DNA of 64,000 nt. It comes from Asaia bogorensis (GTDB lineage Bacteria; Pseudomonadota; Gammaproteobacteria; Burkholderiales; Burkholderiaceae_C). Where the stretch lies: contig CALRUM020000008.1 in the NCBI GenBank assembly GCA_943371375.1, forward strand, positions 9,164 to 73,163, in the 5' to 3' direction. Under the pieces are notes generated by a model that was not told the origin of the DNA, did not search any database, and saw only the letters and a program-made list of their open reading frames with translations. The position numbers and the translations under genes are program-made. How positions within the stretch are numbered: position 1 is the first letter of the stretch; each line of letters begins with the position of its first letter. Positions 10,041 through 50,343 of the stretch are shown here, one piece after another.

Positions 10041-12998
10041 ATGCTGACTTCGTGGGGGCTTCGTTCTCGTCTGGTGGCGCTGATTCTGGTCGCCATGCTG
10101 CCCCTGCTTGGCCTGCTGGTGTGGGCCCTGGTGGACCTGCAAGCGGACGCAGCCACACTGGTGCTGCAGGCGCTTGTCCTGCTGGCTGCCGCGCTGGCAG
10201 GCCTTGCCGTCGCCTGGTTCATGGGCCAGCGCATGATCGTCGATCCGGCGGCTGCCATTTTGCGCGAAGCCCGGGAGCTGGCGCGAGGCAACCTTGCGGC
10301 GCGGGTGGCCACCGTCACCGTGGACCGGGGCGAGCTGGGGCAGCTTGCCAGCACATTCAACAGCATGGCCGAATCCCTTCAGATGCGCCAGCGCGCGCTG
10401 GACCAGACGCTGCTGGAGGTCGGCAAAGAGCGCGCCATGCTGGACCTGATCATCAACAGCATGAGTGAAGGCGTGATTGCGGTGGATCTGCAGGACCGCT
10501 TTCTGCTGTTCAACGCGGCCGCGAGAAAAACCTTTGTAGAGCATCAGGCCGGCATGACGCTGACGCAATGGCGCCAGTGCCACGAGTTGCTGGTGCTCGG
10601 CCAGGAGCGGGTGTGTGAATCGCAGGACAGGCCCTTGAGCCGCGCGCTGCGCGGAGAGAGTGTGGACGGCCTGGACATGGTGCTGCGCCTGCCGTATCAG
10701 GAGGACCGGGTGCTGCGCAACAACGTGCGGCCGCTGCATGATGAAAGCGGCAGCCTGGTGGGGGCCCTGGCGGTGTTCACCGACATCACCGAGCGTCAGG
10801 CGGCCAAGGACTTTGCCCGCGACCAGGAGCAGGTGCTGGAGCTGATGGCTGGTGGCGTGCCCCTGCAGGAATCGCTGGACGCCATCGTGCGGCTGATCGA
10901 AGGCCGCGCACCGGGCAGCCTGTGCGCCATCATGTTGCGAGTGGGCGCGCAGCTGCGGCATGGCGCGGCGCCCAGTCTGCCGGCAGAACTGAACCGCCGC
11001 CTCGACGGGCTGGAAATTGCCGAAGGTGCGAGTGCCTGTGGAACCGCAGCTGCGCGAAAAAAAGCCGTAGTGGTCAGCGACATCGAACACGACCCCCTGA
11101 TGCGCAACTACCTGGCGCTGGCGCACGAGTTTGACCTGCAGGCGTGCTGGTCCACGCCGGTGCTCTCGGCCAGCGGCGCGGTGCTGGCCACCTTTGCGAT
11201 ATACCACCGCGCACCGTATGAGCCGCAAGCGCGCGACCACACCCTGGTGGAGTCCGCCGTCAGGCTGGCGCGTATTGCGATCGAAAGTGCCCGCGCCGGC
11301 CAAGCCCTGCTGGTCAGTGAGGCGCGGTTTCGCGAGCTTGCGGAGAACGTCGAGTCGGTGTTTTACAACCGTGACTTCGCCAGCGGCCGGTTTCTGTATG
11401 TCAGTCCCGCTTACGAAGAGCTTTGGGGCCGCAGCATAGCCAGCCTGGCTGACCAGCCCGATTCCTTCGGGCGCGGCATCCACCCGGACGATCAGGCCCA
11501 GCAGGCGCAGGGTGCACAGGCGCAGGCCAGTGGCGTCAGCACGCACCTGGAATACCGCATCATTCGCCCTGATGGCGCGGTGCGCTGGATTCGGGACCAT
11601 GCCTATCCGGTGACCAATTCTGCGGGTGTGGTGGAGCGGGTGGTGGGCACCGCGCGCGACATCACCGATCGCAAGCTGGCCGACCTGGAACTGGCGCGCA
11701 CCCACCGCGCGCTGCAAATGCTCAGCCGCTGCAATGAAACCGTGATCCGCGTGGACGACGAAGCCGGTTTGCTCAACGAGGTCTGCCGGCTGGCGGTTGA
11801 TCTGGGCGGTTACCGCATGGCCTGGGTCGGGTTTGCGCTCGACGACGAGGCCGGCAGCATTGTGCCCATGGCGCGCGCCGGACATGATGAGGGCTACCTG
11901 GCCAGCATCAAGCTCAGCTGGCACGACAGCGAAGAGATCGGACGCGGCCCCGCCGGCGAGGCCATCCGCAGCGGCCAGCCGCAGCAGCGCAGCGACATCA
12001 GCCAGCCGGACGCACATTTCAACTGGCATGTCCCGGCGATGGAGCGCGGTTACCGCAGCGCATTGATGCTGCCGCTGCGCGATGGCGCCCAGACCTTCGG
12101 CCTGTTGGGGCTGTATGCATCCGAGGTTCAGCTTTTCGCCGCTGAAGAGGTCAAGCTGTTGCAGGACATGGCCGATAACCTGGCGTTCGGCATCGGCAAC
12201 GTGCGCGCACGCCTGGAGCGAAAGCGCGCGCAGGAAGAAGTGCTGCGCCTGAACGCCAGCCTGGAAGACCGGGTGCAACAGCGCACCGCGCAGCTGGAGT
12301 TTGCCAACAAGCAGCTCGAGGCCTTTTCGTACTCCGTGTCGCACGATCTGCGCACGCCGCTCAGTGCTGTCGACGGGTTCAGCAACCTGCTGGCCCGCGA
12401 TCTGGACAACGCTGCAGCAACCGAGCGCAGCCGGCACTACCTGGCACGCATACGGGCCGGGGTCGCGCAGATGGGCGAGCTGATTGACGCCCTGCTGTCG
12501 CTGGCCCAGGTCTCACGCACCAGCCTGCGCTGGGACCAGGTGGACCTCAGCGCGATGGCCGATGCCATCTTCGCTGCGCTGCGCGAGCGTGAGCCCGAGC
12601 GCGATGTTGTGCTCGATATCCAGCCGGGACTGCGGGCCAGAGGCGACGCGCGCCTGTTGCAGCAGGTGCTCGCCAACCTGCTCGGCAACGCCTGGAAGTT
12701 CTGCGGAAAACAGCCGCAGACCCTGATTTCGTTCCGGCGCGAAAGTGCGTCGGACGCCGAAGACCTGTACGCCGTGCAGGACAACGGCGCCGGCTTCGAC
12801 ATGAGTTATTCGGACAAGCTGTTTGGCGCATTCCAGCGCCTGCACACGGTCTCAGAGTTCAGTGGGACCGGCGTCGGGCTGGCCACGGTTCACCGCATCA
12901 TCACGCGCCACGGCGGCAGGGTCTGGGCGACCTCCGAGCCGGGACAGGGTGCGACCTTTTATTTCACACTCGGCAACGCACCCAGCGACGAGGGCTGA
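10041..12998 (+). CDS. Multi-sensor histidine kinase (TM-HAMP-PAS-GAF-PAS/PAC-GAF-HisKA-HATPase)
   Basis: H-box FSYSVSHDLRTPL, N-box NLLGNAWKF, G1 DNGAGF, G2 GTGVGL; HAMP DELGQLASTFNSM; PAS/PAC IHPDD...EYRIIRPDGAVRWI. Confidence 0.93.
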   Translation: MLTSWGLRSRLVALILVAMLPLLGLLVWALVDLQADAATLVLQALVLLAAALAGLAVAWFMGQRMIVDPAAAILREARELARGNLAARVATVTVDRGELGQLASTFNSMAESLQMRQRALDQTLLEVGKERAMLDLIINSMSEGVIAVDLQDRFLLFNAAARKTFVEHQAGMTLTQWRQCHELLVLGQERVCESQDRPLSRALRGESVDGLDMVLRLPYQEDRVLRNNVRPLHDESGSLVGALAVFTDITERQAAKDFARDQEQVLELMAGGVPLQESLDAIVRLIEGRAPGSLCAIMLRVGAQLRHGAAPSLPAELNRRLDGLEIAEGASACGTAAARKKAVVVSDIEHDPLMRNYLALAHEFDLQACWSTPVLSASGAVLATFAIYHRAPYEPQARDHTLVESAVRLARIAIESARAGQALLVSEARFRELAENVESVFYNRDFASGRFLYVSPAYEELWGRSIASLADQPDSFGRGIHPDDQAQQAQGAQAQASGVSTHLEYRIIRPDGAVRWIRDHAYPVTNSAGVVERVVGTARDITDRKLADLELARTHRALQMLSRCNETVIRVDDEAGLLNEVCRLAVDLGGYRMAWVGFALDDEAGSIVPMARAGHDEGYLASIKLSWHDSEEIGRGPAGEAIRSGQPQQRSDISQPDAHFNWHVPAMERGYRSALMLPLRDGAQTFGLLGLYASEVQLFAAEEVKLLQDMADNLAFGIGNVRARLERKRAQEEVLRLNASLEDRVQQRTAQLEFANKQLEAFSYSVSHDLRTPLSAVDGFSNLLARDLDNAAATERSRHYLARIRAGVAQMGELIDALLSLAQVSRTSLRWDQVDLSAMADAIFAALREREPERDVVLDIQPGLRARGDARLLQQVLANLLGNAWKFCGKQPQTLISFRRESASDAEDLYAVQDNGAGFDMSYSDKLFGAFQRLHTVSEFSGTGVGLATVHRIITRHGGRVWATSEPGQGATFYFTLGNAPSDEG

Positions 12999-14510: not shown

Positions 14511-14568
14511 GCTATCGATACGATAGCTGCTGACGCCCGCCCAGCAAGGGCTAGAGCCCGATTTTGAT
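14511..14568 (+). repeat. REP-like repeat family A, copy overlapping the 3' end of the metallophosphoesterase gene
   Basis: Head GCTATCGATACGATAGC at 14511-14527, body TGCTGACGCCCGCCCAGCAAGGGCTAGAGCCCGATTTTGAT. Confidence 0.8.
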
Positions 14569-15405
14569 CAGCAAATCGGGCTGAAAGCCGTCCTGCTCGC
14601 CCTTGCGCGCGTAGCCCAGGGGGTTGGCCACCACCCGGCAGCCGTTTTGCACATAGTCGCTGGGGCAATGCAGATGGCCATGCAGCCACAGCTGCGCCTG
14701 GGCCAGCAGCTCATCGAGGGCATTGCAAAAACCCGCTGTGCCCGGTGCCCGGCCGTAACGCGGGTCGGCACTCAGCAGGCTGGGCGCAAAGTGCGTCACC
14801 ACCACGGTCGGGCCGGCAAAAGGCCGGGCCAGCGCCTGGCGCAGCCAGGCCTGGCTTTGCACACCCTGGGCGCGCACCGCGTCGGCCAGCATGGGCTCGC
14901 CGTTCTGCAATGCATGGTGTTTGCGCAGGTAAAAGTTGGCGGCGCGAAAGGCCTTTTCCCTGGCCTTCAGCTGCCCGGCCAGCGTCTGGGCGGGGTCCGT
15001 GACCGGGTCGGGTGCCAGCGCATCAAAGTCGGTCCACAGCGTGCTGCCGACAAAACGCACACCAGCGATTTCCAGCACCTCGCGCTCCAGCCAGATCAGC
15101 CCCAGGCGCTGGCAGACCTCGCGCAGGCGCGCGCCTGCGGCGGCAAAATCCAGGCCGTCGTATTCATGGTTGCCGGGCAAAAAAAGCACGGGAGTCGGCC
15201 AGCCAGCCCCACCTTGCGCCACCGGCAAGGGTGAAAAACGGGCCAGCCCGAAGTCGCTGTCGTGCAGCAGGTCGGCCAGCAGGGAGCCGGGCTGGTAAGA
15301 GCCGATGTCGCCGGCCAGCACCAGCAGGTCAGCGCCGGGGACCGGGCGGGCGACAAAATGCGGGTTTGATTCAAGGTGCAGATCGGACAGGAGCTGGATG
15401 TTCAC
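14551..15405 (-). CDS. Calcineurin-like metallophosphoesterase
   Basis: SDLHLE, LAGDIG, PGNHEY, VVTHFAP, WLHGHLH motifs; GTG start at 15405. Confidence 0.9.
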   Translation of the reverse strand: MNIQLLSDLHLESNPHFVARPVPGADLLVLAGDIGSYQPGSLLADLLHDSDFGLARFSPLPVAQGGAGWPTPVLFLPGNHEYDGLDFAAAGARLREVCQRLGLIWLEREVLEIAGVRFVGSTLWTDFDALAPDPVTDPAQTLAGQLKAREKAFRAANFYLRKHHALQNGEPMLADAVRAQGVQSQAWLRQALARPFAGPTVVVTHFAPSLLSADPRYGRAPGTAGFCNALDELLAQAQLWLHGHLHCPSDYVQNGCRVVANPLGYARKGEQDGFQPDLLIKIGL

Positions 15406-20858: not shown

Positions 20859-20940
20859 AGCTTGCCCCCGGGTTCTGACAGTCATGACATGCGGGTGTGG
20901 AATGCCGCAATAATGAAGTTTTCAGATGGCAGGTTTGATC

Positions 20941-21732
20941 ATGGGTATGCAGAGGCCGGGCATCCAGCGCTGGCGCCGGATCGTGACCGCCTCGTTGTGG
21001 CTGCTGCTGACGGGCGCGGTTCTGGCGCAAGCCGACACCCGGCCAAAACCGGTGCTGGTCGCGGCCGCCGCCAATATGCAGTCGGCACTCACCGAGCTGG
21101 TGCCGCTGTTCGAAAGCGGGCACTCAGCCCGCGTCAGCCTGACACTGGGCTCGTCGGCGACGCTGGTCCGGCAGATCCAGCAAGGCTTGCCGGCGCAGCT
21201 GTTTTTATCGGCCGATGAAGATTTTGTTTTCCGCCTGGCCGATGCCGGGCTGACGCAGGACCGGGGCGCGGTATACGCCACCGGCCGTCTGGTGCTGCTG
21301 GTGCCAGCGGGCTCGCCCCTGGTGCTGGACCCCGGGCTGGTCGGGCTCAAAGCCGGTTTGCCCGGGCTGCGCAAACTGGCCATTGCCAACCCGGAGCTGG
21401 CGCCTTATGGCAAGGCGGCGGTGCAGGTCCTGCAGCAGCAGGCGCTCTGGCCCGCACTGCAGGGCAAGCTGGTGCTGGGGGACAACATCGCGCAAACCAC
21501 GCAGTTTGTCAGCAGCGGCGCGGCCGACGCGGGCATCACCGCCTTGTCGCTGGCGCTGGCGCCCGAAGTGGCGGCGCGCACGCGTTTTGTGCTGATCTCC
21601 GAGGCGCTGCATGCGCCGGTCCGGCAACGCATGGTGTTGCTGAAAAATGCCGGTCCGGGCGCACGGGCCTTCCATGATTTTCTGCAGTCGCCCGAAGCAA
21701 AGGCGGTGTTGCTGCGTTACGGCTTTCGGTAA
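20941..21732 (+). CDS. modA: Molybdate ABC transporter substrate-binding protein
   Basis: VAAAANM, LGSSATLVRQI, FLSADE, IANPELAPYG, LGDNIAQT motifs; start could be 20926-20947. Confidence 0.92.
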   Translation: MGMQRPGIQRWRRIVTASLWLLLTGAVLAQADTRPKPVLVAAAANMQSALTELVPLFESGHSARVSLTLGSSATLVRQIQQGLPAQLFLSADEDFVFRLADAGLTQDRGAVYATGRLVLLVPAGSPLVLDPGLVGLKAGLPGLRKLAIANPELAPYGKAAVQVLQQQALWPALQGKLVLGDNIAQTTQFVSSGAADAGITALSLALAPEVAARTRFVLISEALHAPVRQRMVLLKNAGPGARAFHDFLQSPEAKAVLLRYGFR

Positions 21733-21744
21733 AGCGGCCACAAC

Positions 21745-21803
21745 GCTCCTGAAATAATAGCTGCTGGTGCCTGCTGTGTCTGGGCTGATGGCCGATTTGG
21801 CTT
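21745..21803 (+). repeat. REP-like repeat family A, copy between modA and modB
   Basis: Head GCTCCTGAAATAATAGC at 21745-21761, body TGCTGGTGCCTGCTGTGTCTGGGCTGATGGCCGATTTGGCTT. Confidence 0.75.
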
Positions 21804-22007
21804 TACAGCAAGGATTTCCGCAGCCAGGTACGGGGCTGCGCGGTACAGTCGGAGCCGTCACCTGCTTTTGCCGCCCGGTCTCCGTGCGGAAGAAAACCCC
21901 ATGAACCTGACCGCCCCATGTCCGCCCGCCGCACCGACCAAGGTGTACATCGCCGCCTGCTTGCGCGGTCGGCGTGTGCGGCCTGCTGCCTGGTGGCCAG
22001 GCTGAGC

Positions 22008-22676
22008 ATGGATTGGCAGGCCGCCCGCGTATCCCTGCTGCTGGCCCTGTGCACGGCGGCCTTGCTGCTGCCATTTGGCTTGTGGCTGGCGCGCTGGCTG
22101 GCCACCACGGCCTGGCGTGGCCGGCCGGCGGTGGAGGCCCTGCTGATGCTGCCCTTGCTGCTGCCACCCACGGTGGTGGGCTTTTACCTCCTGTCCACGC
22201 TGGGGCAGGGCTCGCCGCTGGGGGCATGGCTGGCCCGCAGTTTCAATCTCCGCCTGGTGTTCAGTTTTGAAGGTTTGCTGCTGGCCAGCCTGCTGGTGAA
22301 CCTGCCTTTCATGGTGCAGCCTTTGCAGCGTGCCTTTGCGGCCATTCCCGTCAGCTTGCGTGAGGCGGCCTGGGTCTGTGGCCTGAGCCCCTGGCGGGCG
22401 TTCTGGAAGATTGAGCTGCCCCTGGTCTGGCCCGGGCTGCTGGCCGGGGTGGCGCTGACCGTCGCGCACACCCTCGGTGAGTTCGGCGTGGTGTTGATGG
22501 TGGGTGGCAGCATCGCGGGCGAAACCCGTACCCTGTCGATTGCCATTTATGACCGGGTGCAAGCCTTTGATCTGGCCGGGGCCCATGTCATGGCGCTGGT
22601 GCTGGTGCTGTGTTCGCTGGTGGCGCTGGGGCTGGTGTTTGCCGCCGGCAGGGCGCGGCCCTTGCAGGAGCGTTAG
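22008..22676 (+). CDS. modB: Molybdate ABC transporter permease
   Basis: LPLLLPPTVVGFYLL, NLPFMV, LREAA (EAA), AHTLGEFGVVLMVGGSIAGETRTLSIAIY. Confidence 0.95.
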   Translation: MDWQAARVSLLLALCTAALLLPFGLWLARWLATTAWRGRPAVEALLMLPLLLPPTVVGFYLLSTLGQGSPLGAWLARSFNLRLVFSFEGLLLASLLVNLPFMVQPLQRAFAAIPVSLREAAWVCGLSPWRAFWKIELPLVWPGLLAGVALTVAHTLGEFGVVLMVGGSIAGETRTLSIAIYDRVQAFDLAGAHVMALVLVLCSLVALGLVFAAGRARPLQER

Positions 22677-22680
22677 AGCG

Positions 22681-23835
22681 ATGCTGCAGGTGTCCCTCCA
22701 GAGTGCTGGCCCGATCCGGCTGAACGCCAGCTTTGATTGCCAGCCCGGCGAGTTGCTGTGCCTGGTGGGTCCGTCGGGCAGTGGCAAGACCAGTGTGCTG
22801 CGGGCGCTGGCCGGGTTGCTCAAAAGTCCGGGTCTGCGCGGCCGGGTCAGCATCAGCGGCGCGGGCGGCGATGCGCTCTGGTTTGACAGCGACCAGGGCC
22901 ACTGGCTGCCACCGCAGCGCCGCCGTGTGGGCCTGGTGTTCCAGAACTACGCCTTGTTTCCGCACCTGACTGCTATCGAAAACGTAGCTATTGCCGCAGA
23001 CCCCGAAAGGGCTGAAGGCGCACTGGATGCCTTGTTTGAACGCATGGGGCTGACCGGCCTGCAACAGCGCCGGCCGGCGCAGCTCTCGGGCGGCCAGCAG
23101 CAACGAGTGGCCCTGGCCCGCGCGCTGGCCCGCGAGCCGCAGGTGCTGCTGCTGGACGAGCCGTTTTCCGCGGTGGATGCGCCCACGCGCCAGACCCTGT
23201 ACCACGAGCTGGCGGCGCTGCGCCAGCGGGTCGCCATCCCGATGGTGCTGGTGACACATGACCTGAACGAGGCACGGCGGCTGGCGGATCGTGTCGTGAT
23301 CCTGGACGCCGGCGAGTCGCTGCAGGTGGGCACGCCGGCGCGTGTATTTGCCAGCCCGCGCAATGCGCGTGTGGCCGAGCTGGTGGGTATCCAGAACCAT
23401 TTCAGCGGCCAGTTTTTCAAAAATCAGCCACAGGACCCGGCCGGTTACGGTCGGCTGGCCTGGCACGATGTGGCGGCTGCGCAGCAGGCTGGTGCAGGCG
23501 CGCCCGTTTGGCTGCAGGTGCCCGACAAAGGGCGCCTGGACGATGGCGTCGCCGTCTCCTGGGTACTGAGCGGTGAGCTGGTGGACGTCGCCGTGGCTGC
23601 GGGCGCGGGCGCGGCGGGCAACAGCCTGCGCTGCACCCTCTCGGAGGTGCTGCCGCTGGGCGAAATCAGTCTGTGCACGCTGGTACCGCTGGCCTTGCCC
23701 GGTCAGCGCCTGACGCTGAACCTGTCCACCGCTGCGCTGCGCCAGCTGGGTGCGGTGGCCGGTGCGGCGCTGGATCTGCAGATACCGCCGCAGGCGGTGC
23801 ATGTCATGCCGGTGCGGCAAAACCAGGCCGGCTAG
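22681..23835 (+). CDS. modC: Molybdate ABC transporter ATP-binding protein
   Basis: GPSGSGKT Walker A, LSGGQQQR signature, LLLDEPF Walker B, VTHD; follows modAB. Confidence 0.9.
   Translation: MLQVSLQSAGPIRLNASFDCQPGELLCLVGPSGSGKTSVLRALAGLLKSPGLRGRVSISGAGGDALWFDSDQGHWLPPQRRRVGLVFQNYALFPHLTAIENVAIAADPERAEGALDALFERMGLTGLQQRRPAQLSGGQQQRVALARALAREPQVLLLDEPFSAVDAPTRQTLYHELAALRQRVAIPMVLVTHDLNEARRLADRVVILDAGESLQVGTPARVFASPRNARVAELVGIQNHFSGQFFKNQPQDPAGYGRLAWHDVAAAQQAGAGAPVWLQVPDKGRLDDGVAVSWVLSGELVDVAVAAGAGAAGNSLRCTLSEVLPLGEISLCTLVPLALPGQRLTLNLSTAALRQLGAVAGAALDLQIPPQAVHVMPVRQNQAG
22972..23020 (+). repeat. Family A repeat-derived segment embedded in frame in modC
   Basis: Head GCTATCGAAAACGTAGC; 20 of the next 31 nt match the 14528 body without gaps; atypical A/T-ending codons. 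Confidence 0.6.
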
Positions 23836-33523: not shown

Positions 33524-33944
33524 GCCGGGGGTTGCCCGGCGGCAAGTAACTTTCTTTTGCGTCGCCAAAAGAAAGTCACCAAAGAAAAGGCGACCCGATG
33601 GTCTGGGTCCCTCCGCTGCGCTACGGGCAACCTGCGGTGCTCGCCGAAAACGGGGTCTCGCTCGAACTCGCTGCGCTCAGACAATCGCTCGCCCTGATCC
33701 GTTTTCGGCTGCGCTCTTCGGCCCAGCCCGACGGGTGGGAGACCGAACGCGGGTGCGGGGAGCCTTGACGCGCTCCGCGCGTCAAGGCGTATTTCAGTTG
33801 GCCGCCATGTTTGCACGCGGGAGCAGCGCACGTGGCCAAATGAGGTCCCCCTCCATCGCCCAGCGGGGGCGAGGGAGGGGTTAGGGGTGGGAGTGGGGAG
33901 TTAGACCCTACTGCCCCGAGCAGACCTCAGGCGCAGCGTGATGC
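33524..33944. mobile_element. Composite non-coding repeat family B, copy 1 (non-autonomous element or structured RNA)
   Basis: Collinear with 39320-39749 over ~420 bp with long identical blocks and compensatory changes in stems; no transposase ORF. Confidence 0.75.
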
Positions 33945-39319: not shown

Positions 39320-39749
39320 GCCGGGTCTCGCCCCGGCGGGCGACTCACTTTCTCTTGCGTCGCCAAGAGAAAGTAAGCAAAGAGAAGGCGACCCGATGGT
39401 CAGGGTCCTTCCGCTTTGCTCCAGGCAACCTGCGGTGCTCGCCGTTAACGGGGGCTAGCTCGAACTCGCCTTCGGCTCAGACAATCGCTCGCCCTGATCC
39501 GTTTTCGGCTGCGCTCCTCGGCCCAGCCCGACGGGTGGGGGAAACAAATGCGGGTTCGGATGCGGGGAGACGATGACGCGGAGAGCGCGTCATCGTCGGA
39601 CTACGCGGCGGTCATGTTTGCACGCGGGGGCAGCACACGCGGCCAAATGAGGTCCCCCTCCATCGCCCAGCGGGGCGAGGGAGGGGTTAGGGGTGGGAGT
39701 GGGGAGTTAGTCCTACTGTCTAACGCAAGCCCGAGACGCAGCGTGATGC
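39320..39749. mobile_element. Composite non-coding repeat family B, copy 2
   Basis: Same orientation and module order as 33524-33944; also lies between convergent genes. Confidence 0.75.
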
Positions 39750-39759
39750 CGGCAACACC

Positions 39760-40659
39760 TCAGCTCAGCACCACACTGCTCAAGCGCCGCCGGTAAGTCG
39801 CCACCACCGGATCATCCGGCGGAATCTGGCCGTCGGCGACCTTGACCCGGGGCGGCTCGATGATTTCCAGGATGGACACAAAGGTCTTGCGTGCCAGTTC
39901 CCCGTTCCAGGATTTGTCGCGCATCAGGATTTCCAGCAACTCGTCCATCGCCGCCACCCACTGCTGCTGGCTCATGTGCAGTTGTGCCAGCGCGTAACGT
40001 GTGTCGAAGTCCCGCTTGTTGCCTGCAAGTTTTGCATCGAATCCGGCTTTGGCCAGCGCCGCATCTGCGTGAGCAGCTCCTGATTCAATAGCGTTGAGCC
40101 AGTGTTGCAGGGCCTCCAGCTTGCGCACCACCGGCGCTTTGCTGGCTACGGGCGCAAAAGCGGTTTTGGCGTGTTCGACCTGGCCGTGCTGCAGCAGCAG
40201 GCGGATGTAATCGAAGCGTGCGTTGTCGTTGGCCGGGTCGGTGGCAACGGCTGCCTGCAGTTTTTCCAGCACCGCTGCCGGGCTGCTGTCTTCCGGCTCC
40301 GCCATTTCTTCTTCGGCCGGTGGCAACTCTTCGGCCGGCGGCAGGTGTTTGTCGAGAAACTCCTTGACCTTGCCTTCGGGCAGCGCGCCCTGAAAACCGT
40401 CCACCGGCTGGCCGTTGACCATCAGTATGCAGGTCGGAATGCTGCGAATGCCAAAGGCGGCGCCCAGTTGCTGCTCCTGGTCGGAGTCGATCTTGACCAG
40501 CTTGAAGCGTCCGCCGTAGGCGATTTCCACTTTCTCCAGGATGGGCCCCAGAGATTTGCAGGGTCCGCACCAGGGCGCCCAGAAATCAATCAGCACGGGG
40601 GTGGTCATGGAAGCCGCAATGACTTCCTCCTCAAAATTGGCAATGGTGGCGTCGATCAT
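39760..40659 (-). CDS. ybbN: Thioredoxin/TPR co-chaperone YbbN (CnoX)
   Basis: DFWAPWCGPCK, FGIRSIP, C-terminal TPR ELLEILMRDKSWN...YRRRLSS. Confidence 0.9.
   Translation of the reverse strand: MIDATIANFEEEVIAASMTTPVLIDFWAPWCGPCKSLGPILEKVEIAYGGRFKLVKIDSDQEQQLGAAFGIRSIPTCILMVNGQPVDGFQGALPEGKVKEFLDKHLPPAEELPPAEEEMAEPEDSSPAAVLEKLQAAVATDPANDNARFDYIRLLLQHGQVEHAKTAFAPVASKAPVVRKLEALQHWLNAIESGAAHADAALAKAGFDAKLAGNKRDFDTRYALAQLHMSQQQWVAAMDELLEILMRDKSWNGELARKTFVSILEIIEPPRVKVADGQIPPDDPVVATYRRRLSSVVLS
40036..40092 (-). repeat. Family A repeat-derived segment embedded in frame in ybbN
   Basis: Minus strand reads GCTATTGAATCAGGAGC-TGCTCACGCAGATGCGGCGCTGGCCAAAGCCGGATTCGAT, encoding AIESGAAHADAALAKAGFD. Confidence 0.65.
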
Positions 40660-41279: not shown

Positions 41280-42496
41280 GCCTTCCGATCTTTCCGGGCG
41301 CTTTGGATGCCTTGGGCCAGCCAGCCACCCTGGGTGTGATGGGCGGCGGGCAGCTGGGCCGCATGTTTGTGCATGCTGCGCAGCGCCTCGGTTATTTCAC
41401 GGCGGTGCTCGACCCCGATGCAGACAGCCCGGCGGGCCGCGTCAGCCATCACCACATCCAGGCCGGTTACAGCGATGCGGCTGGCCTGGCGCAACTGGCA
41501 TCGCTGTGCGCCGCCATCACCACCGAATTTGAAAACGTGCCGGCTGAGGCCCTGCAGGCGCTGGCCGCCAGCCGGCCGGTGGCGCCTGGCGCAGCGGCGG
41601 TGGCGATTGCGCAGGATCGCATCGAGGAAAAAGCCCACTTCAGCGCCAGCGCCGGTGTCGCAGGTGTCAGCTGCGCGCCTTATGCGGTCATCAGGACTGC
41701 GCAACAGCTGCGCGCCGTGCCGGCCGATCTGCTGCCCGGCATCCTGAAAACCGCACGTTTGGGTTACGACGGCAAGGGCCAGCTGCGTGTGGGCAACATG
41801 GCCGAACTGGCGGTGGCCTGGGCGGATTTGAAGGGTGTGCCCTGCGTGCTGGAAAAGCGGCTGCCGCTGAAGGCCGAGTGTTCGGTCATTGTGGCGCGCG
41901 GCTGGGACGGTGCGGTGGTGGGTTTTGCGCCGCAGTACAACCTGCATGTGGACGGCATTCTGGCCGTCACTGCCGCCCACGAAGGAAATATACCGCCAGC
42001 CCTTGCACAGCGGGCGCGAGCAGCTACTGAATCCATAGCAAGCCACATCGGCTATGTCGGTGTGTTGTGTGTCGAGTTTTTTGTCATCGACGACGGCAGT
42101 GCCGATGGCGCGCTGGTGGTCAACGAAATGGCGCCACGCCCCCACAACAGCGGCCACTACACGCTGGACGCCTGCGATGTCTCGCAGTTTGACCTGCAGG
42201 TGCACGCCATGGCGGGCTTGCCGCTGCCGCTGCCGCGCCAGCATTCACCGGCCATCATGCTCAATCTGCTGGGCGATGTGTGGCTCGATGCCGCAGGCCA
42301 GGCGCGCACGCCCGACTGGCAAGCCGTGCTGGCCCTGCCCGGCACACACCTGCATCTGTACGGCAAGCTCGAAGCCCGCCCCGGCCGCAAAATGGGCCAC
42401 CTGACCATCACCGGCGCCGATGTGGCGTCGGTGCAGGCGGTGGCGCGCCAGGCCGCTCGGGTTCTGCGGCTGCCGGGGCTGGACGCGCTGGGATGA
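41276..42496 (+). CDS. purK: N5-CAIR synthetase
   Basis: [46 protein letters not shown]. Confidence 0.96.
41986..42039 (-). repeat. Family A repeat-derived segment embedded in frame in purK (body first, head last on the coding strand)
   Basis: AAATATACCGCCAGCCCTTGCACAGCGGGCGCGAGCA-GCTACTGAATCCATAGC closely parallels the 9390-9445 copy. Confidence 0.7.
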
Positions 42497-43578: not shown

Positions 43579-44448
43579 ATGAGCCTTGATCCCGAATTCC
43601 CCAGGGTCAGCGCTGTACCGGCCATGGCCGCGTTGCTGGCGCAATTGCGTGCAGGCGGCGACGCCGCCGCGACAGAGCAGGAAATCCTGCGCATCACCGG
43701 CTTCCTGGAGGCTGAACTGAAGCAGCGCAGCGCCGAGCTGGCCGCTGCAAACAGCGAGCTGGAGAATTTTTCCTATTCGGTCTCGCACGACCTGCGCGCG
43801 CCGCTGAGCACCATAGACGGCTTCAGCCGTCTGCTGGAGGGCGCGGTGGCCAAGGGCAATGCGGAACGCAGCACGCACTACCTGCAGCGCATACGCCTGG
43901 GTGTGGCCAATATCAATGAGCTGATTGCTGCCCTGCTGGCAGTGTCGCGCCTGCTGCGTGCGCCCATGACGCTGCAGACGGTGGATCTGGCTGCGCTGGC
44001 TGCCGAGGTATTTGCAGCGCTGCAGCAGGCCGAGCCGGAGCGGGTGCTGCAGCTCAGCATCCAGCCCGGGCTGCAGGTGCGTGGTGACCCGGCCCTGATC
44101 CGGCAACTGGTTGAGCATCTGGCCGGCAACGCCTGGAAGTTCAGCGCCAAAAAAGACCGCGTACAGATTGCGGTGGGCAGCCAGCCGGGGCCGGCTGGCG
44201 AGACGGTTTATTTTTTCCGCGACAACGGCGCAGGTTTCGACATGGCGCATGCGGACAAGCTGTTTGGCATCTTTCAGCGCCTGCATGTGTCGTCGGACTT
44301 TCCGGGCATAGGCGCGGGCCTGAGCGCGGTGCAGCGCATCGTGCTTCGCCATGGCGGGCGTGTCTGGGCGCAGGCGCTGCCGGAGCAGGGGGCCACGATT
44401 TATTTCACGCTGGCAGCGTCGGCGCCCGGTCTTGCCGCTGCTGCCTGA
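43579..44448 (+). CDS. Minimal histidine kinase (HisKA-HATPase with almost no sensor region)
   Basis: FSYSVSHDLRAPL, HLAGNAWKF, DNGAGF, GIGAGL; only ~60 aa precede the H-box; start uncertain (43522-43624). Confidence 0.8.
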   Translation: MSLDPEFPRVSAVPAMAALLAQLRAGGDAAATEQEILRITGFLEAELKQRSAELAAANSELENFSYSVSHDLRAPLSTIDGFSRLLEGAVAKGNAERSTHYLQRIRLGVANINELIAALLAVSRLLRAPMTLQTVDLAALAAEVFAALQQAEPERVLQLSIQPGLQVRGDPALIRQLVEHLAGNAWKFSAKKDRVQIAVGSQPGPAGETVYFFRDNGAGFDMAHADKLFGIFQRLHVSSDFPGIGAGLSAVQRIVLRHGGRVWAQALPEQGATIYFTLAASAPGLAAAA

Positions 44449-46862: not shown

Positions 46863-46897
46863 AATTCGACAAGCGCAGGCGCCATGCCTTCATCCAA

Positions 46898-46992
46898 GCA
46901 GGGGCCGCGGAACCGGCTTAGCCGGGCCGCAGGCGCAGCGGCCCCCCCGGGGCTGGTGCCTGCGGCTCCGAACCTGCTTGAGCAGGTTCGGA
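46898..46992 (+). repeat. GC-rich palindromic repeat family C, copy 1 (within the 214-bp gap of a two-component operon)
   Basis: GCAGGGGCCGCGGAACCGGCTTAGCCGGGCCGCAGGCGC matches the reverse complement of the 50266-50321 copy at 35 of 39 nt; adjacent TCCGAACCTGCT/AGCAGGTTCGGA hairpin. Confidence 0.7.
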
Positions 46993-50265: not shown

Positions 50266-50321
50266 CCCCCCTCGAGGGGGCGGCGCCTGCGGTCTGGCTA
50301 AGCCAGTCCCGCGGCCCCTGC
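50266..50321 (-). repeat. GC-rich palindromic repeat family C, copy 2
   Basis: Reverse complement GCAGGGGCCGCGGGACTGGCTTAGCCAGACCGCAGGCGC; lies between convergent recX and argC. Confidence 0.7.
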
Positions 50322-50343
50322 TGGCGAAGAGGAGTGCGTGGGG

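What the first reader, a model, noticed from the sequence alone, without database searches (positions are those of the whole stretch)
22972..23020. Repeat family A in frame inside modC, and a shared reading-frame rule
The head GCTATCGAAAACGTAGC starts at codon 98 and gives AIENVA; 20 of the next 31 nt match the 14528 body without gaps. In all three coding copies the head is read Ala-first (AIENVA, AIESGA, ATESIA). The +1 frame of a ...TAGC head contains TAG, so frame choice is constrained. In ABC ATPases this position normally reads roughly (T/S)xxENxx, so the repeat may have overwritten a pre-existing look-alike sequence, hinting at homology-guided conversion (inference). Part of the match could therefore be coincidental.
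Basis: partly seen in the sequence, partly recalled or inferred. Interest (0 to 1): 0.62.

Follow-up and report, generated by a model that had tools for sequence, protein, structure and literature searches.

The report
Old dispersed-repeat copy inside modC
Sixteen codons of the molybdate-transporter ATPase gene of this Polaromonas genome are a real but worn copy of a 66-base repeat found about 520 times in the genome. The copy adds no residues, is shared by many Polaromonas relatives, and shows that this repeat can sit codon-for-codon inside working genes.

Summary
GCTATCGAAAACGTAGC starts at codon 98 of the modC-like gene (ATG 22681) and reads AIENVA. 20 of the next 31 nt match the copy at 14528.

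The match is not chance and not just the ABC "ENV" motif:
- A 66-nt family model built without this site scores it 24.6 bits (E about 5e-5 genome-wide). Ten shuffled genomes reach at most 14.3 bits.
- The 31-nt body alone scores 20.3 bits, reached at about 1 in 10 million shuffled positions.
- Synonymous recodings of the same peptide never reach the observed score (P<5e-7).
- GC3 is 0.44 in the patch against 0.82 in the rest of the gene.

The copy adds no residues compared with orthologs and a solved homolog.

It is old. Eight of 11 further Polaromonas orthologs (73-91% identical) score 21.9-31 bits (E<1e-3) at the same site. Their majority consensus is a better family member than the average single copy, and synonymous sites drift at the gene's normal rate. 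The likeliest history is replacement of a look-alike segment in an ancestor, followed by vertical inheritance and decay.

The frame rule is only partly right. 32 of 46 coding copies read Ala-first, but 10 use the "TAG" frame, with Glu where the head's TAG would fall. How the overwriting happened is untested.

The parts
22972..22988 (+). Head of the family-A copy, GCTAT-CGAAAAC-GTAGC, covering codons 98-103 (AIENVA) of modC
   Evidence: 17.9 bits on the family profile. GTAGC is the second commonest 3' arm. The rare codons GCT and GTA are shared by 10/12 and 11/12 orthologs.
22989..23019 (+). Body of the copy, TATTGCCGCAGACCCCGAAAGGGCTGAAGGC (codons 103-113, ..IAADPERAEG). AAGGGCTGAAGGC sits at the family's fixed spacing.
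   Evidence: 20.3 bits, p about 1e-7 per position, synonymous-recoding P=2.5e-6. It contains the rare codons AGG, GCT and GCA.
23020..23037 (+). Place of the element's tail (family positions 51-66). Decayed in this genome, still recognisable (ATTTGAT/ATTTGAC) in orthologs.
   Evidence: the tail scores -4.8 bits here and +7 to +13 bits in several orthologs. The majority consensus of 12 orthologs scores +9.3.
22681..23835 (+). modC-like ABC transporter ATPase (384 aa) that hosts the copy
   Evidence: ABC_tran domain. TIGR02142 modC scores 185.7 bits, below its 285 cut-off. The operon context with modA and modB is shown.
20926..21732 (+). modA, molybdate-binding protein
   Evidence: TIGR01256 168.7 bits, above the cut-off.
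22008..22676 (+). modB, permease (probable start at MDWQ)
   Evidence: TIGR02141 218.6 bits, above the cut-off.
21745..21808 (+). Intergenic family-A copy in the modA-modB spacer. Here the copy comes with extra DNA: the spacer is about 275 nt, against about 30-60 nt in relatives.
   Evidence: The 91%-identical ortholog contig has a copy at the same place (50 bits).
14511..14572 (+).
   Evidence: 53.2 bits.
40030..40093 (-). Family-A copy inside the thioredoxin-TPR (cnoX/ybbN-like) gene, read AIESGA
41982..42040 (-). Family-A copy inside purK (antisense to the gene, read ATESIA). No gap against solved PurK homologs.

Best explanation
Window 22972-23019 (originally extending to about 23037) is a true member of a roughly 520-copy, 66-nt dispersed repeat of Polaromonas. 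It lies codon-for-codon over the segment that follows the Q-loop/ENV motif of the modC ATPase and adds no residues.

Shown: it is a family member at the DNA level. It causes no length change. It is shared at the same site by many Polaromonas modC orthologs. Its synonymous sites now drift at the gene's ordinary rate.

Inferred: in an ancestor of these orthologs the repeat replaced a native segment that already resembled it (A-L-E-N-V-A-L-A-A ...), by some homology-assisted templated process rather than by plain insertion. The product survived because the repeat's frame-0 translation (A-I-x-x-I/V-A-A-x-A-x-P-x-R-A-G-G-x-F-D) is an Ala-rich helix-and-turn that the variable part of the helical subdomain tolerates. 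Since then it has been inherited vertically and is slowly being erased. Erasure is faster, or complete, in lineages whose genomes lack the family.
For: Membership:
- nhmmer 24.6 bits, E 4.9e-5, with a model that excludes the site. Shuffled genomes reach at most 14.3 bits.
- Body alone p about 1e-7.
- Pairwise identity to copies equals copy-versus-copy identity.
- Synonymous recoding P<5e-7.
- GC3 0.44 versus 0.82, and the patch holds the worst-adapted codon windows of the gene.
- Other ABC ENV sites score -26.8 bits or less.

No added residues: ortholog alignment and solved homolog 9j4r_B.

Age:
- Orthologs at 73-91% identity score 31.0, 29.0, 28.6, 28.0, 25.8, 22.4, 21.9, 17.1 and 15.9 bits at the same site.
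- The majority consensus of 12 orthologous sites scores 39.7 bits (+9.3 for the tail), against a mean of 27.5 for individual copies.
- 4 of 8 conserved patch columns share a rare, element-type codon, against 4 of 169 elsewhere (P=1e-4).
- Third-position identity is 0.646 in the patch and 0.642 in the rest of the gene.

Look-alike target: the A-L/I-E/D-N-V/I-A motif is present in orthologs without the copy.

Generality: the purK copy also shows no gap against solved homologs and sits at the orthologous site in 15 genomes of the genus. A second MoeA copy is likewise gap-free.
Against: - The founding event is too old to see, so replacement rather than insertion plus deletion is inferred only from equal length with copy-poor orthologs, which may themselves be decayed copies.
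- The family can make true in-frame insertions. MoeA gains about 27 aa, and the Pfam spans of MlrC_C, SpoU and Pro_dh suggest +20 to +34 aa.
- No donor copy or conversion tract was found. The best of 458 copies matches 37/48.
- The copy is significant in 7 of 9 family-bearing genomes or contigs and in 0 of 12 family-poor ones (Fisher 3e-4; not corrected for phylogeny). Pure neutral decay does not predict this.
- Two deep-branching orthologs (L042, L043) match a different part of the element, so the site may have been hit more than once.
Confidence: 0.6

Rival explanations
1. Ongoing sequence drive, like DNA uptake sequences or continuing gene conversion from the genomic pool. Look-alike coding segments are pulled toward the repeat consensus wherever the family or its machinery is present, and relax where it is lost. 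On this view the modC site is maintained or re-made, not merely inherited.
For: - Significant modC copies occur only in family-bearing genomes or contigs (7/9 versus 0/12).
- purK copies score 42-57 bits in family-rich genomes, 28-37 bits in four family-poor genomes (0-8 copies of the 13-mer) and about 0 in a copy-free clade.
- L042/L043 match the 5' body (TGCTTGCGCA), which the main clade lacks.
- Different orthologs match the consensus at different variable positions.
- Coding copies prefer three peptide-friendly frames beyond what stop codons explain, as reported for uptake sequences (PMC2817400).
Against: - Synonymous-site identity in the patch is no higher than in the rest of the gene (0.646 versus 0.642).
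- The consensus of orthologs is better than the average single copy, the signature of decay from a good ancestor.
- The motif is about 60 nt and occurs once per 7.6 kb, unlike uptake sequences.
- The association with family presence is confounded by phylogeny.
Confidence: 0.17
2. Ordinary in-frame insertion of the element (as with Rickettsia palindromic elements) into the linker in an ancestor, followed by deletion of about the same amount of neighbouring native sequence.
For: - The family does insert in frame elsewhere: MoeA +27 aa. The carboxyltransferase copy shows a net +7 aa in a loop.
- The intergenic copy in the modA-modB spacer comes with extra DNA.
- The distantly related 'MPHL' clade of this ATPase has an unalignable linker that is 4 aa longer.
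Against: - The head coincides exactly with the universal ABC A-x-E-N-V-A motif rather than lying beside it.
- Length equals that of copy-poor orthologs and of a solved homolog.
- The same gap-free pattern recurs in purK and in the second MoeA copy. Repeated exact compensation would be needed.
Confidence: 0.15
3. A recent conversion specific to this genome's lineage. This was my own first reading, from three relatives.
For: Against a majority sequence of nine copy-poor orthologs, this genome shows 14 changes toward the element and 1 away.
Against: Denser sampling shows that the same element-like codons (GCT AT., GTA GCT, AGG GCT) occur in orthologs only 73-91% identical. The 'ancestor' was biased by copy-poor lineages.
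Confidence: 0.03
4. Chance resemblance built on the generic ABC ENV motif.
For: The head overlaps a conserved protein motif. Family-free genomes with AT-rich codons show perfect heads at this site with no body (L035, L037, L041).
Against: Body p about 1e-7. Recoding P<5e-7. Shuffles reach at most 14.3 bits. Twelve other ABC ENV sites score -26.8 bits or less.
Confidence: 0.02

Closest known systems
Motif pair ATAGCT(N)22CAAAAG of Polaromonas naphthalenivorans CJ2 (Tong and Mrazek 2017, PMC5217627)
   Same: Same genus and same ATAGCT core. Over a hundred copies, mostly intergenic and often between convergent genes, with 14% inside genes (18 of 125). Function unknown. Here: depleted between divergent genes (12) compared with convergent ones (69), and about 9% of copies in genes.
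   Different: The paper reports only a statistical motif pair. It gives no full element, no reading-frame analysis, and no note that genic copies can lie over existing codons. The downstream half (CAAAAG) is not this genome's consensus at that spacing.
Rickettsia palindromic elements (RPE; Ogata et al. 2000, from my own knowledge)
   Same: A dispersed short repeat found in frame inside housekeeping genes, tolerated because its translation is structurally benign. This family also makes such insertions (MoeA +27 aa).
   Different: RPEs add 30-50 residues. The modC, purK and second MoeA copies add none. The head stem here shows no compensatory covariation.
DNA uptake sequences (USS/DUS) in coding regions (Findlay and Redfield 2009, PMC2817400)
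   Same: Repeats that sit inside genes without indels, in preferred reading frames, at poorly conserved residues, and that change the encoded peptide.
   Different: Uptake sequences have a 9-12-bp core and occur about once per kb. This element is about 60-66 nt and occurs once per 7.6 kb. No uptake bias is known for Polaromonas. Synonymous sites in the modC patch show no extra conservation.
REP elements with RAYT transposases
   Same: Abundant short repeats, mostly downstream of genes, with a GTAG/ATAG-containing dyad.
   Different: The single RAYT-like gene (C5:104320-104607) is present in genomes with and without the family, and the nearest family-A copy lies 3.9 kb away. Copies are singlets, not doublets. 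Some copies are genic.

Membership tests
Family A repeat of this genome (66-nt model) | Profile score above the noise of the genome and of shuffled genomes | tested here: met
   24.6 bits, E 4.9e-5. The noise trough is at 15-18 bits and shuffles reach at most 14.3 bits.
Family A repeat of this genome (66-nt model) | 17-nt head GCTAT-N7-(A/G)TAGC with a 7-nt centre | tested here: met
   GCTAT-CGAAAAC-GTAGC. All 403 heads that match the pattern have a 7-nt centre, and GTAGC is the second commonest arm.
Family A repeat of this genome (66-nt model) | Block TGCTTGCGC directly after the head | tested here: inconclusive
   The site has TATTGCCGC, 6 of 9 identities with two strongly negative positions. 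Orthologs P0003, L042 and L043 are closer to the block.
Family A repeat of this genome (66-nt model) | Block AAGGGCTG(G/A)AGGC at fixed distance from the head | tested here: met
   AAGGGCTGAAGGC lies in register without gaps.
Family A repeat of this genome (66-nt model) | Tail (C)GATTTGA(CTC) | tested here: not met
   -4.8 bits in this genome. Present in orthologs and in their consensus (+9.3 bits).
In-frame inserted repeats (RPE-like) | The copy adds residues compared with homologs that lack it | tested here: not met
   No gap against orthologs or against 9j4r_B.
DNA uptake sequences | Short core (about 10 bp) at about 1 per kb | tested here: not met
   About 60-66 nt, with about 520 copies in 3.95 Mb.
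DNA uptake sequences | Preferential uptake of DNA that carries the motif | not testable with these tools
   Needs transformation assays.
REP/RAYT system | Cognate RAYT gene flanked by the repeats, with presence correlated to the family | tested here: not met
   The RAYT-like gene is present in 24 of 25 genus genomes whether or not they carry the family. The nearest family copy is 3.9 kb away.
Structured RNA family (Rfam) | Match to a curated covariance model, or a conserved covarying structure | tested here: not met
   No Rfam hit in the window. RNAalifold finds no consensus structure, and head pairs 4-14 and 5-13 do not covary.
ModC (molybdate ABC transporter ATPase) | Equivalog model TIGR02142 above its cut-off, and an operon with modA and modB | tested here: inconclusive
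   TIGR02142 scores 185.7 bits, below the 285 cut-off. The adjacent modA and modB pass their cut-offs.

The most novel reading that the evidence does not exclude
The repeat family enters coding DNA by homology-guided overwriting of look-alike, helix-coding segments, without any indel. Such copies are kept similar to the consensus only while the family or the machinery that recognises it persists. This would be a molecular drive of the uptake-sequence type, but acting on a 60-nt motif. The modC site would be one of its targets, hit in at least two lineages.
Probability: 0.3. Interest if true: 0.85.

Novelty: new variant of a known kind. Interest (0 to 1): 0.58.

Why it matters
Dispersed bacterial repeats are usually treated as extragenic. 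When they are genic, they are expected to be insertions that lengthen the protein. Here a 60-nt repeat lies codon-for-codon over an essential-fold segment of an ABC ATPase, and likewise in purK and MoeA, without changing protein length. The copy has persisted through at least 25% protein divergence.

That points to a route by which selfish or functional DNA motifs can rewrite coding sequence while staying invisible at the protein-length level. It is also a source of atypical codon usage and of lineage-specific residues in conserved domains.

The modC case adds a graded series of orthologs, from well preserved to erased, that could calibrate how such copies arise and decay.

Tried and rejected
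1. **Recent, lineage-specific conversion.** The 14-toward/1-away result rested on copy-poor relatives only. It was overturned by 120 closer homologs and 11 fetched DNA loci.
2. **Whole-tract replacement by an extant donor.** None of 458 copies leaves as few differences at variable positions as observed. That test used the biased ancestor and is uninformative for an old event.
3. **RAYT/REP link.** No flanking copies and no correlation with the family.
4. **Rfam and RNA structure.** No hit and no covariation.
5. **Extra synonymous conservation in the patch.** Absent.
6. **Strand bias relative to GC skew.** Weak, 198 versus 247.
8. **My first degenerate head pattern** found nothing because it was one base too long.
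9. **Limits.** Gene calls for the genome-wide frame tally are my own codon-usage heuristic. All 20 ORFs that I checked carry Pfam domains in that frame.

Full report
**1. What is at the coordinates**

The ORF that starts with ATG at 22681 and ends at 23835 encodes a 384-aa ABC transporter ATPase. It follows modA (20926-21732) and modB (22008-22676), and both pass their NCBIfam equivalog cut-offs. By context it is modC, although it scores below the TIGR02142 cut-off (185.7 against 285 bits).

GCTATCGAAAACGTAGC occupies 22972-22988, which is codons 98-103 reading A-I-E-N-V-A. The next 31 nt match the copy at 14528 at 20 positions without gaps (my count).

**2. The repeat family**

I started from five window copies and iterated nhmmer over the whole genome. 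The genome is 3.95 Mb in 32 contigs with 63% G+C, and the window is C8:9164-73163. The search gives about 520 copies at E<1e-3.

The consensus is TTGCTATTAATTTAATAGCTGCTTGCGCACGTCCGACAAGGGCTGGAGGCCGATTTGACTCAAAAA. The conserved blocks are GCTAT, (A/G)TAGCTGC, GCGC, AAGGGCT, GGC and ATTT.

- The head always has a 7-nt centre (403 of 403).
- Its stem positions 4-14 and 5-13 do not covary, RNAalifold finds no consensus fold, and the window has no Rfam match. The head therefore looks more like a dyad-symmetric DNA motif than a maintained hairpin.
- Copies are singlets with a median spacing of 5.4 kb. They are rare between divergent genes (12) compared with convergent (69) or tandem genes (154), and they show no orientation preference relative to transcription.
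- The exact 13-mer TAGCTGCTTGCGC occurs 87 times here. Its presence is patchy within the genus (0-96 copies). Among the 16 other genera sampled it occurs only as two single matches, at the level of the reversed-pattern control.
- Record titles of related loci identify the genus as Polaromonas.

**3. Is the modC site more than chance or the ABC motif?**

- A clean 66-position model built without the site scores it 24.6 bits, E=4.9e-5 for the genome, rank about 497. The score histogram is bimodal with a trough at 15-18 bits.
- Ten triplet-shuffled genomes give at most 14.3 bits.
- With an ungapped profile the head scores 17.9 bits and the 31-nt body 20.3 bits. A body score that high occurs at 8 of 78 million shuffled positions and at 3 of 7.8 million real positions once family copies are masked.
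- The site is as similar to family copies (28.2 of 48 on average) as copies are to each other (29.8 +/- 3.3).
- Two million synonymous recodings of AIENVAIAADPERAEG using this genome's codon usage average -16 +/- 9.6 bits and never reach the observed 38.3 bits. For the head alone P=4e-3, and for the body alone P=2.5e-6.
- The patch uses GCT three times, plus GTA, AGG, GCA and ATT. Its GC3 is 0.44 against 0.82 for the rest of the gene, and the worst-adapted codon windows of the gene start at codons 95-97.
- Twelve other ABC "LFPHxTVxENV" sites in this genome score -26.8 bits or less in total. Their heads average -23 bits against -47 for random DNA, so the motif gives a head start but nothing like a match.

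**4. No residues are added**

The four closest orthologs from whole genomes (G021, G019, G005) align through this region without a gap. So does a solved iron-transporter ATPase, 9j4r_B. MalK-type homologs are even 5 aa longer here. The copy lies just after the Q-loop/ENV motif, at the start of the variable part of the helical subdomain.

**5. Age of the copy: a reading I had to change**

With only G021, G019, G005, L031, L032 and four Limnohabitans orthologs, this genome looked uniquely derived. It showed 14 substitutions toward the element and 1 away, relative to their majority sequence.

A search of the large protein collection then returned 120 closer homologs, and T-A-I-E-N-V-A-(I/L)-A-A turned out to be the common Polaromonas state. 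I fetched DNA for eleven of them.

- At the same site they score 31.0, 29.0, 28.6, 28.0, 25.8, 22.4, 21.9, 17.1, 15.9 and 11.3 bits, and one is not significant. Protein identities to this genome are 73-91%.
- Different orthologs keep different parts: P0003 keeps TAGCTGT, P0004 keeps CCAACAAGGGCTG and ATTTGAT, and P0024 and P. jejuensis keep CCCGAAAGGGC plus TATTTTGA.
- The majority consensus of the 12 sites scores 39.7 bits over 48 nt plus 9.3 for the tail. That is better than the mean single copy (27.5) and typical of an intergenic family member.
- Four of eight conserved Ala/Val/Arg columns in the patch share a rare, element-type codon (GCT 10/12, GTA 11/12, AGG 9/10, GCT 8/12). In the rest of the gene the figure is 4 of 169 (Fisher P=1e-4).
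- Third-position identity at amino-acid-conserved columns is 0.646 in the patch and 0.642 elsewhere.

Taken together, a good copy existed in an ancestor of these orthologs, and it now drifts like the rest of the gene.

Two deep-branching sister orthologs, L042 and L043, carry significant matches that include the 5' body TGCT/GTTTGCGCA, which the main clade lacks (19.6 and 23.6 bits). Both come from family-rich genomes. This could be the same old event or a second one.

Counting genomes and contigs with known family status, the site is significant in 7 of 9 family-bearing cases and in 0 of 12 family-poor ones (Fisher 3e-4). That figure is not corrected for phylogeny.

**6. How genic copies arise in this genome**

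I called 46 copies as genic. The criterion was the same best coding frame on both flanks and an open frame over +/-240 nt. All 20 ORFs that I scanned have Pfam domains in that frame.

Both kinds of genic copy exist:
- True insertions: MoeA gains about 27 aa at one copy. Pfam spans suggest +20 to +34 aa in MlrC_C, SpoU and Pro_dh. A carboxyltransferase loop is a net 7 aa longer.
- Gap-free overlays: modC, purK, the second MoeA copy and, judging by domain spans, ECH_2, Aldedh, PolyA_pol and AroE.

In purK the element-like DNA sits at the orthologous site in 15 genomes of the genus. It scores 42-57 bits where the family is abundant, 28-37 bits in four family-poor genomes, and about 0 in a clade with a GC-rich version of the same peptide. 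Outgroup genera score about -30 to -41 bits, still about 3 sd above random.

In intergenic DNA the copy comes with extra length. The modA-modB spacer is about 275 nt here and about 30-60 nt in relatives.

**7. The reading-frame rule**

The genome-wide tally of the 46 genic copies is:

| Frame | Copies |
|---|---|
| Sense, Ala-first | 13 |
| Antisense, Ala-first | 19 |
| Sense frame that would read the head's TAG | 10 |
| Other | 4 |

- Ala-first therefore covers 32 of 46 copies (plus modC).
- In the ten TAG-frame copies the translation shows Glu, or in two cases Lys-Arg or Glu-Arg, at the place of the head's TAG. GGAGC arms make up 13 of 36 genic heads but only 36 of 367 intergenic heads.
- Among the 367 intergenic copies, the share that are stop-free over 60 nt is 74% for sense Ala-first, 40% for sense +1, 7% for the TAG frame, 54% for antisense Ala-first, 53% for antisense +1 and 5% for the last frame.
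- If stop codons were the only filter, the expected counts would be about 14.6, 7.9, 1.4, 10.7, 10.5 and 1.0. The observed counts are 13, 1, 10, 19, 3 and 0 (my arithmetic, chi-square about 70 with 5 d.f.).
- Stop codons therefore matter, but they do not explain the pattern. The three favoured frames encode Ala/Leu-rich, helix-friendly peptides: A-I-E-S-I-A-A.., ..A-Q-A-A-I-E-S-I-A, and L-L-x-x-E-L-L-A... The two avoided open frames encode Cys/Tyr/Ser-rich peptides.
- This parallels what was described for uptake sequences in coding regions (PMC2817400).

**8. Mechanism**

Shown: DNA-level membership, no length change, old age, vertical inheritance, and ordinary synonymous drift.

Inferred: the founding event replaced a native look-alike rather than inserting beside it. 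The reasons are that the head coincides exactly with the universal A-x-E-N-V-A motif and that gap-free copies recur in other genes.

I could not show whether this was templated repair or gene conversion, a drive acting on point mutations, or insertion with compensating deletion. I found no donor, and the single RAYT-like gene is not linked to the family. The link between copy preservation and family presence keeps an ongoing homogenising process alive as a rival.

**9. Earlier notes of this scan**

Earlier notes reported the same gap-free behaviour for the cnoX and purK copies. I re-derived the purK case independently. For cnoX I checked only alignment spans.

**10. Verdict**

The finding is real and unusual but not unique in this genome. 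Its particular value is that modC offers a graded series of orthologs for dating and modelling such copies. The "Ala-first rule" is a strong tendency, not a rule.

Noticed in passing
G000 C7:12602-13948 (locus L142): MoeA carries two family-A copies. One lies in an insertion of about 27 aa relative to E. coli MoeA (aa 304-335). One is gap-free, lying over aa 163-182 in the frame that would read the head's TAG.
   Followed up: partly
window 33541-33907 and 39339-39713: Two copies of a modular non-coding element of about 370-420 bp, 86-98% identical in blocks. It is unrelated to family A, and another finding of this scan covers it.
   Followed up: no
window 46897-46952 and 50267-50322: A 56-nt G+C-rich inverted repeat, 80% complementary, flanking about 3.3 kb.
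   Followed up: no
window 12423-12970 and 43864-44411: Two stretches about 70% identical in the same register (spacing 31441). They are probably paralogous gene segments.
   Followed up: no
whole genome with family copies masked: 54 positions reach the modC head score (17.9 bits or more) without a recognised body, against 0.8 expected from shuffles. Solo heads or very decayed copies may be common.
   Followed up: no
G000 C5:104320-104607: A single-copy RAYT-like (Y1 transposase) gene is conserved in 24 of 25 genomes of the genus. The nearest family-A copy is 3.9 kb away. Its scores are weaker in G019 and G021, two genomes that lack the family.
   Followed up: partly
loci L038 and L045: Contigs labelled as MAGs of Akkermansia muciniphila and Bordetella parapertussis carry Comamonadaceae-type modC operons. 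L038 groups inside Limnohabitans. Binning or labelling errors in the public records are likely.
   Followed up: no
loci L191, L192, L195 (P. jejuensis and two other Polaromonas): A family-A copy (34-40 bits) lies directly downstream of modC in three orthologous loci, but not in this genome.
   Followed up: no
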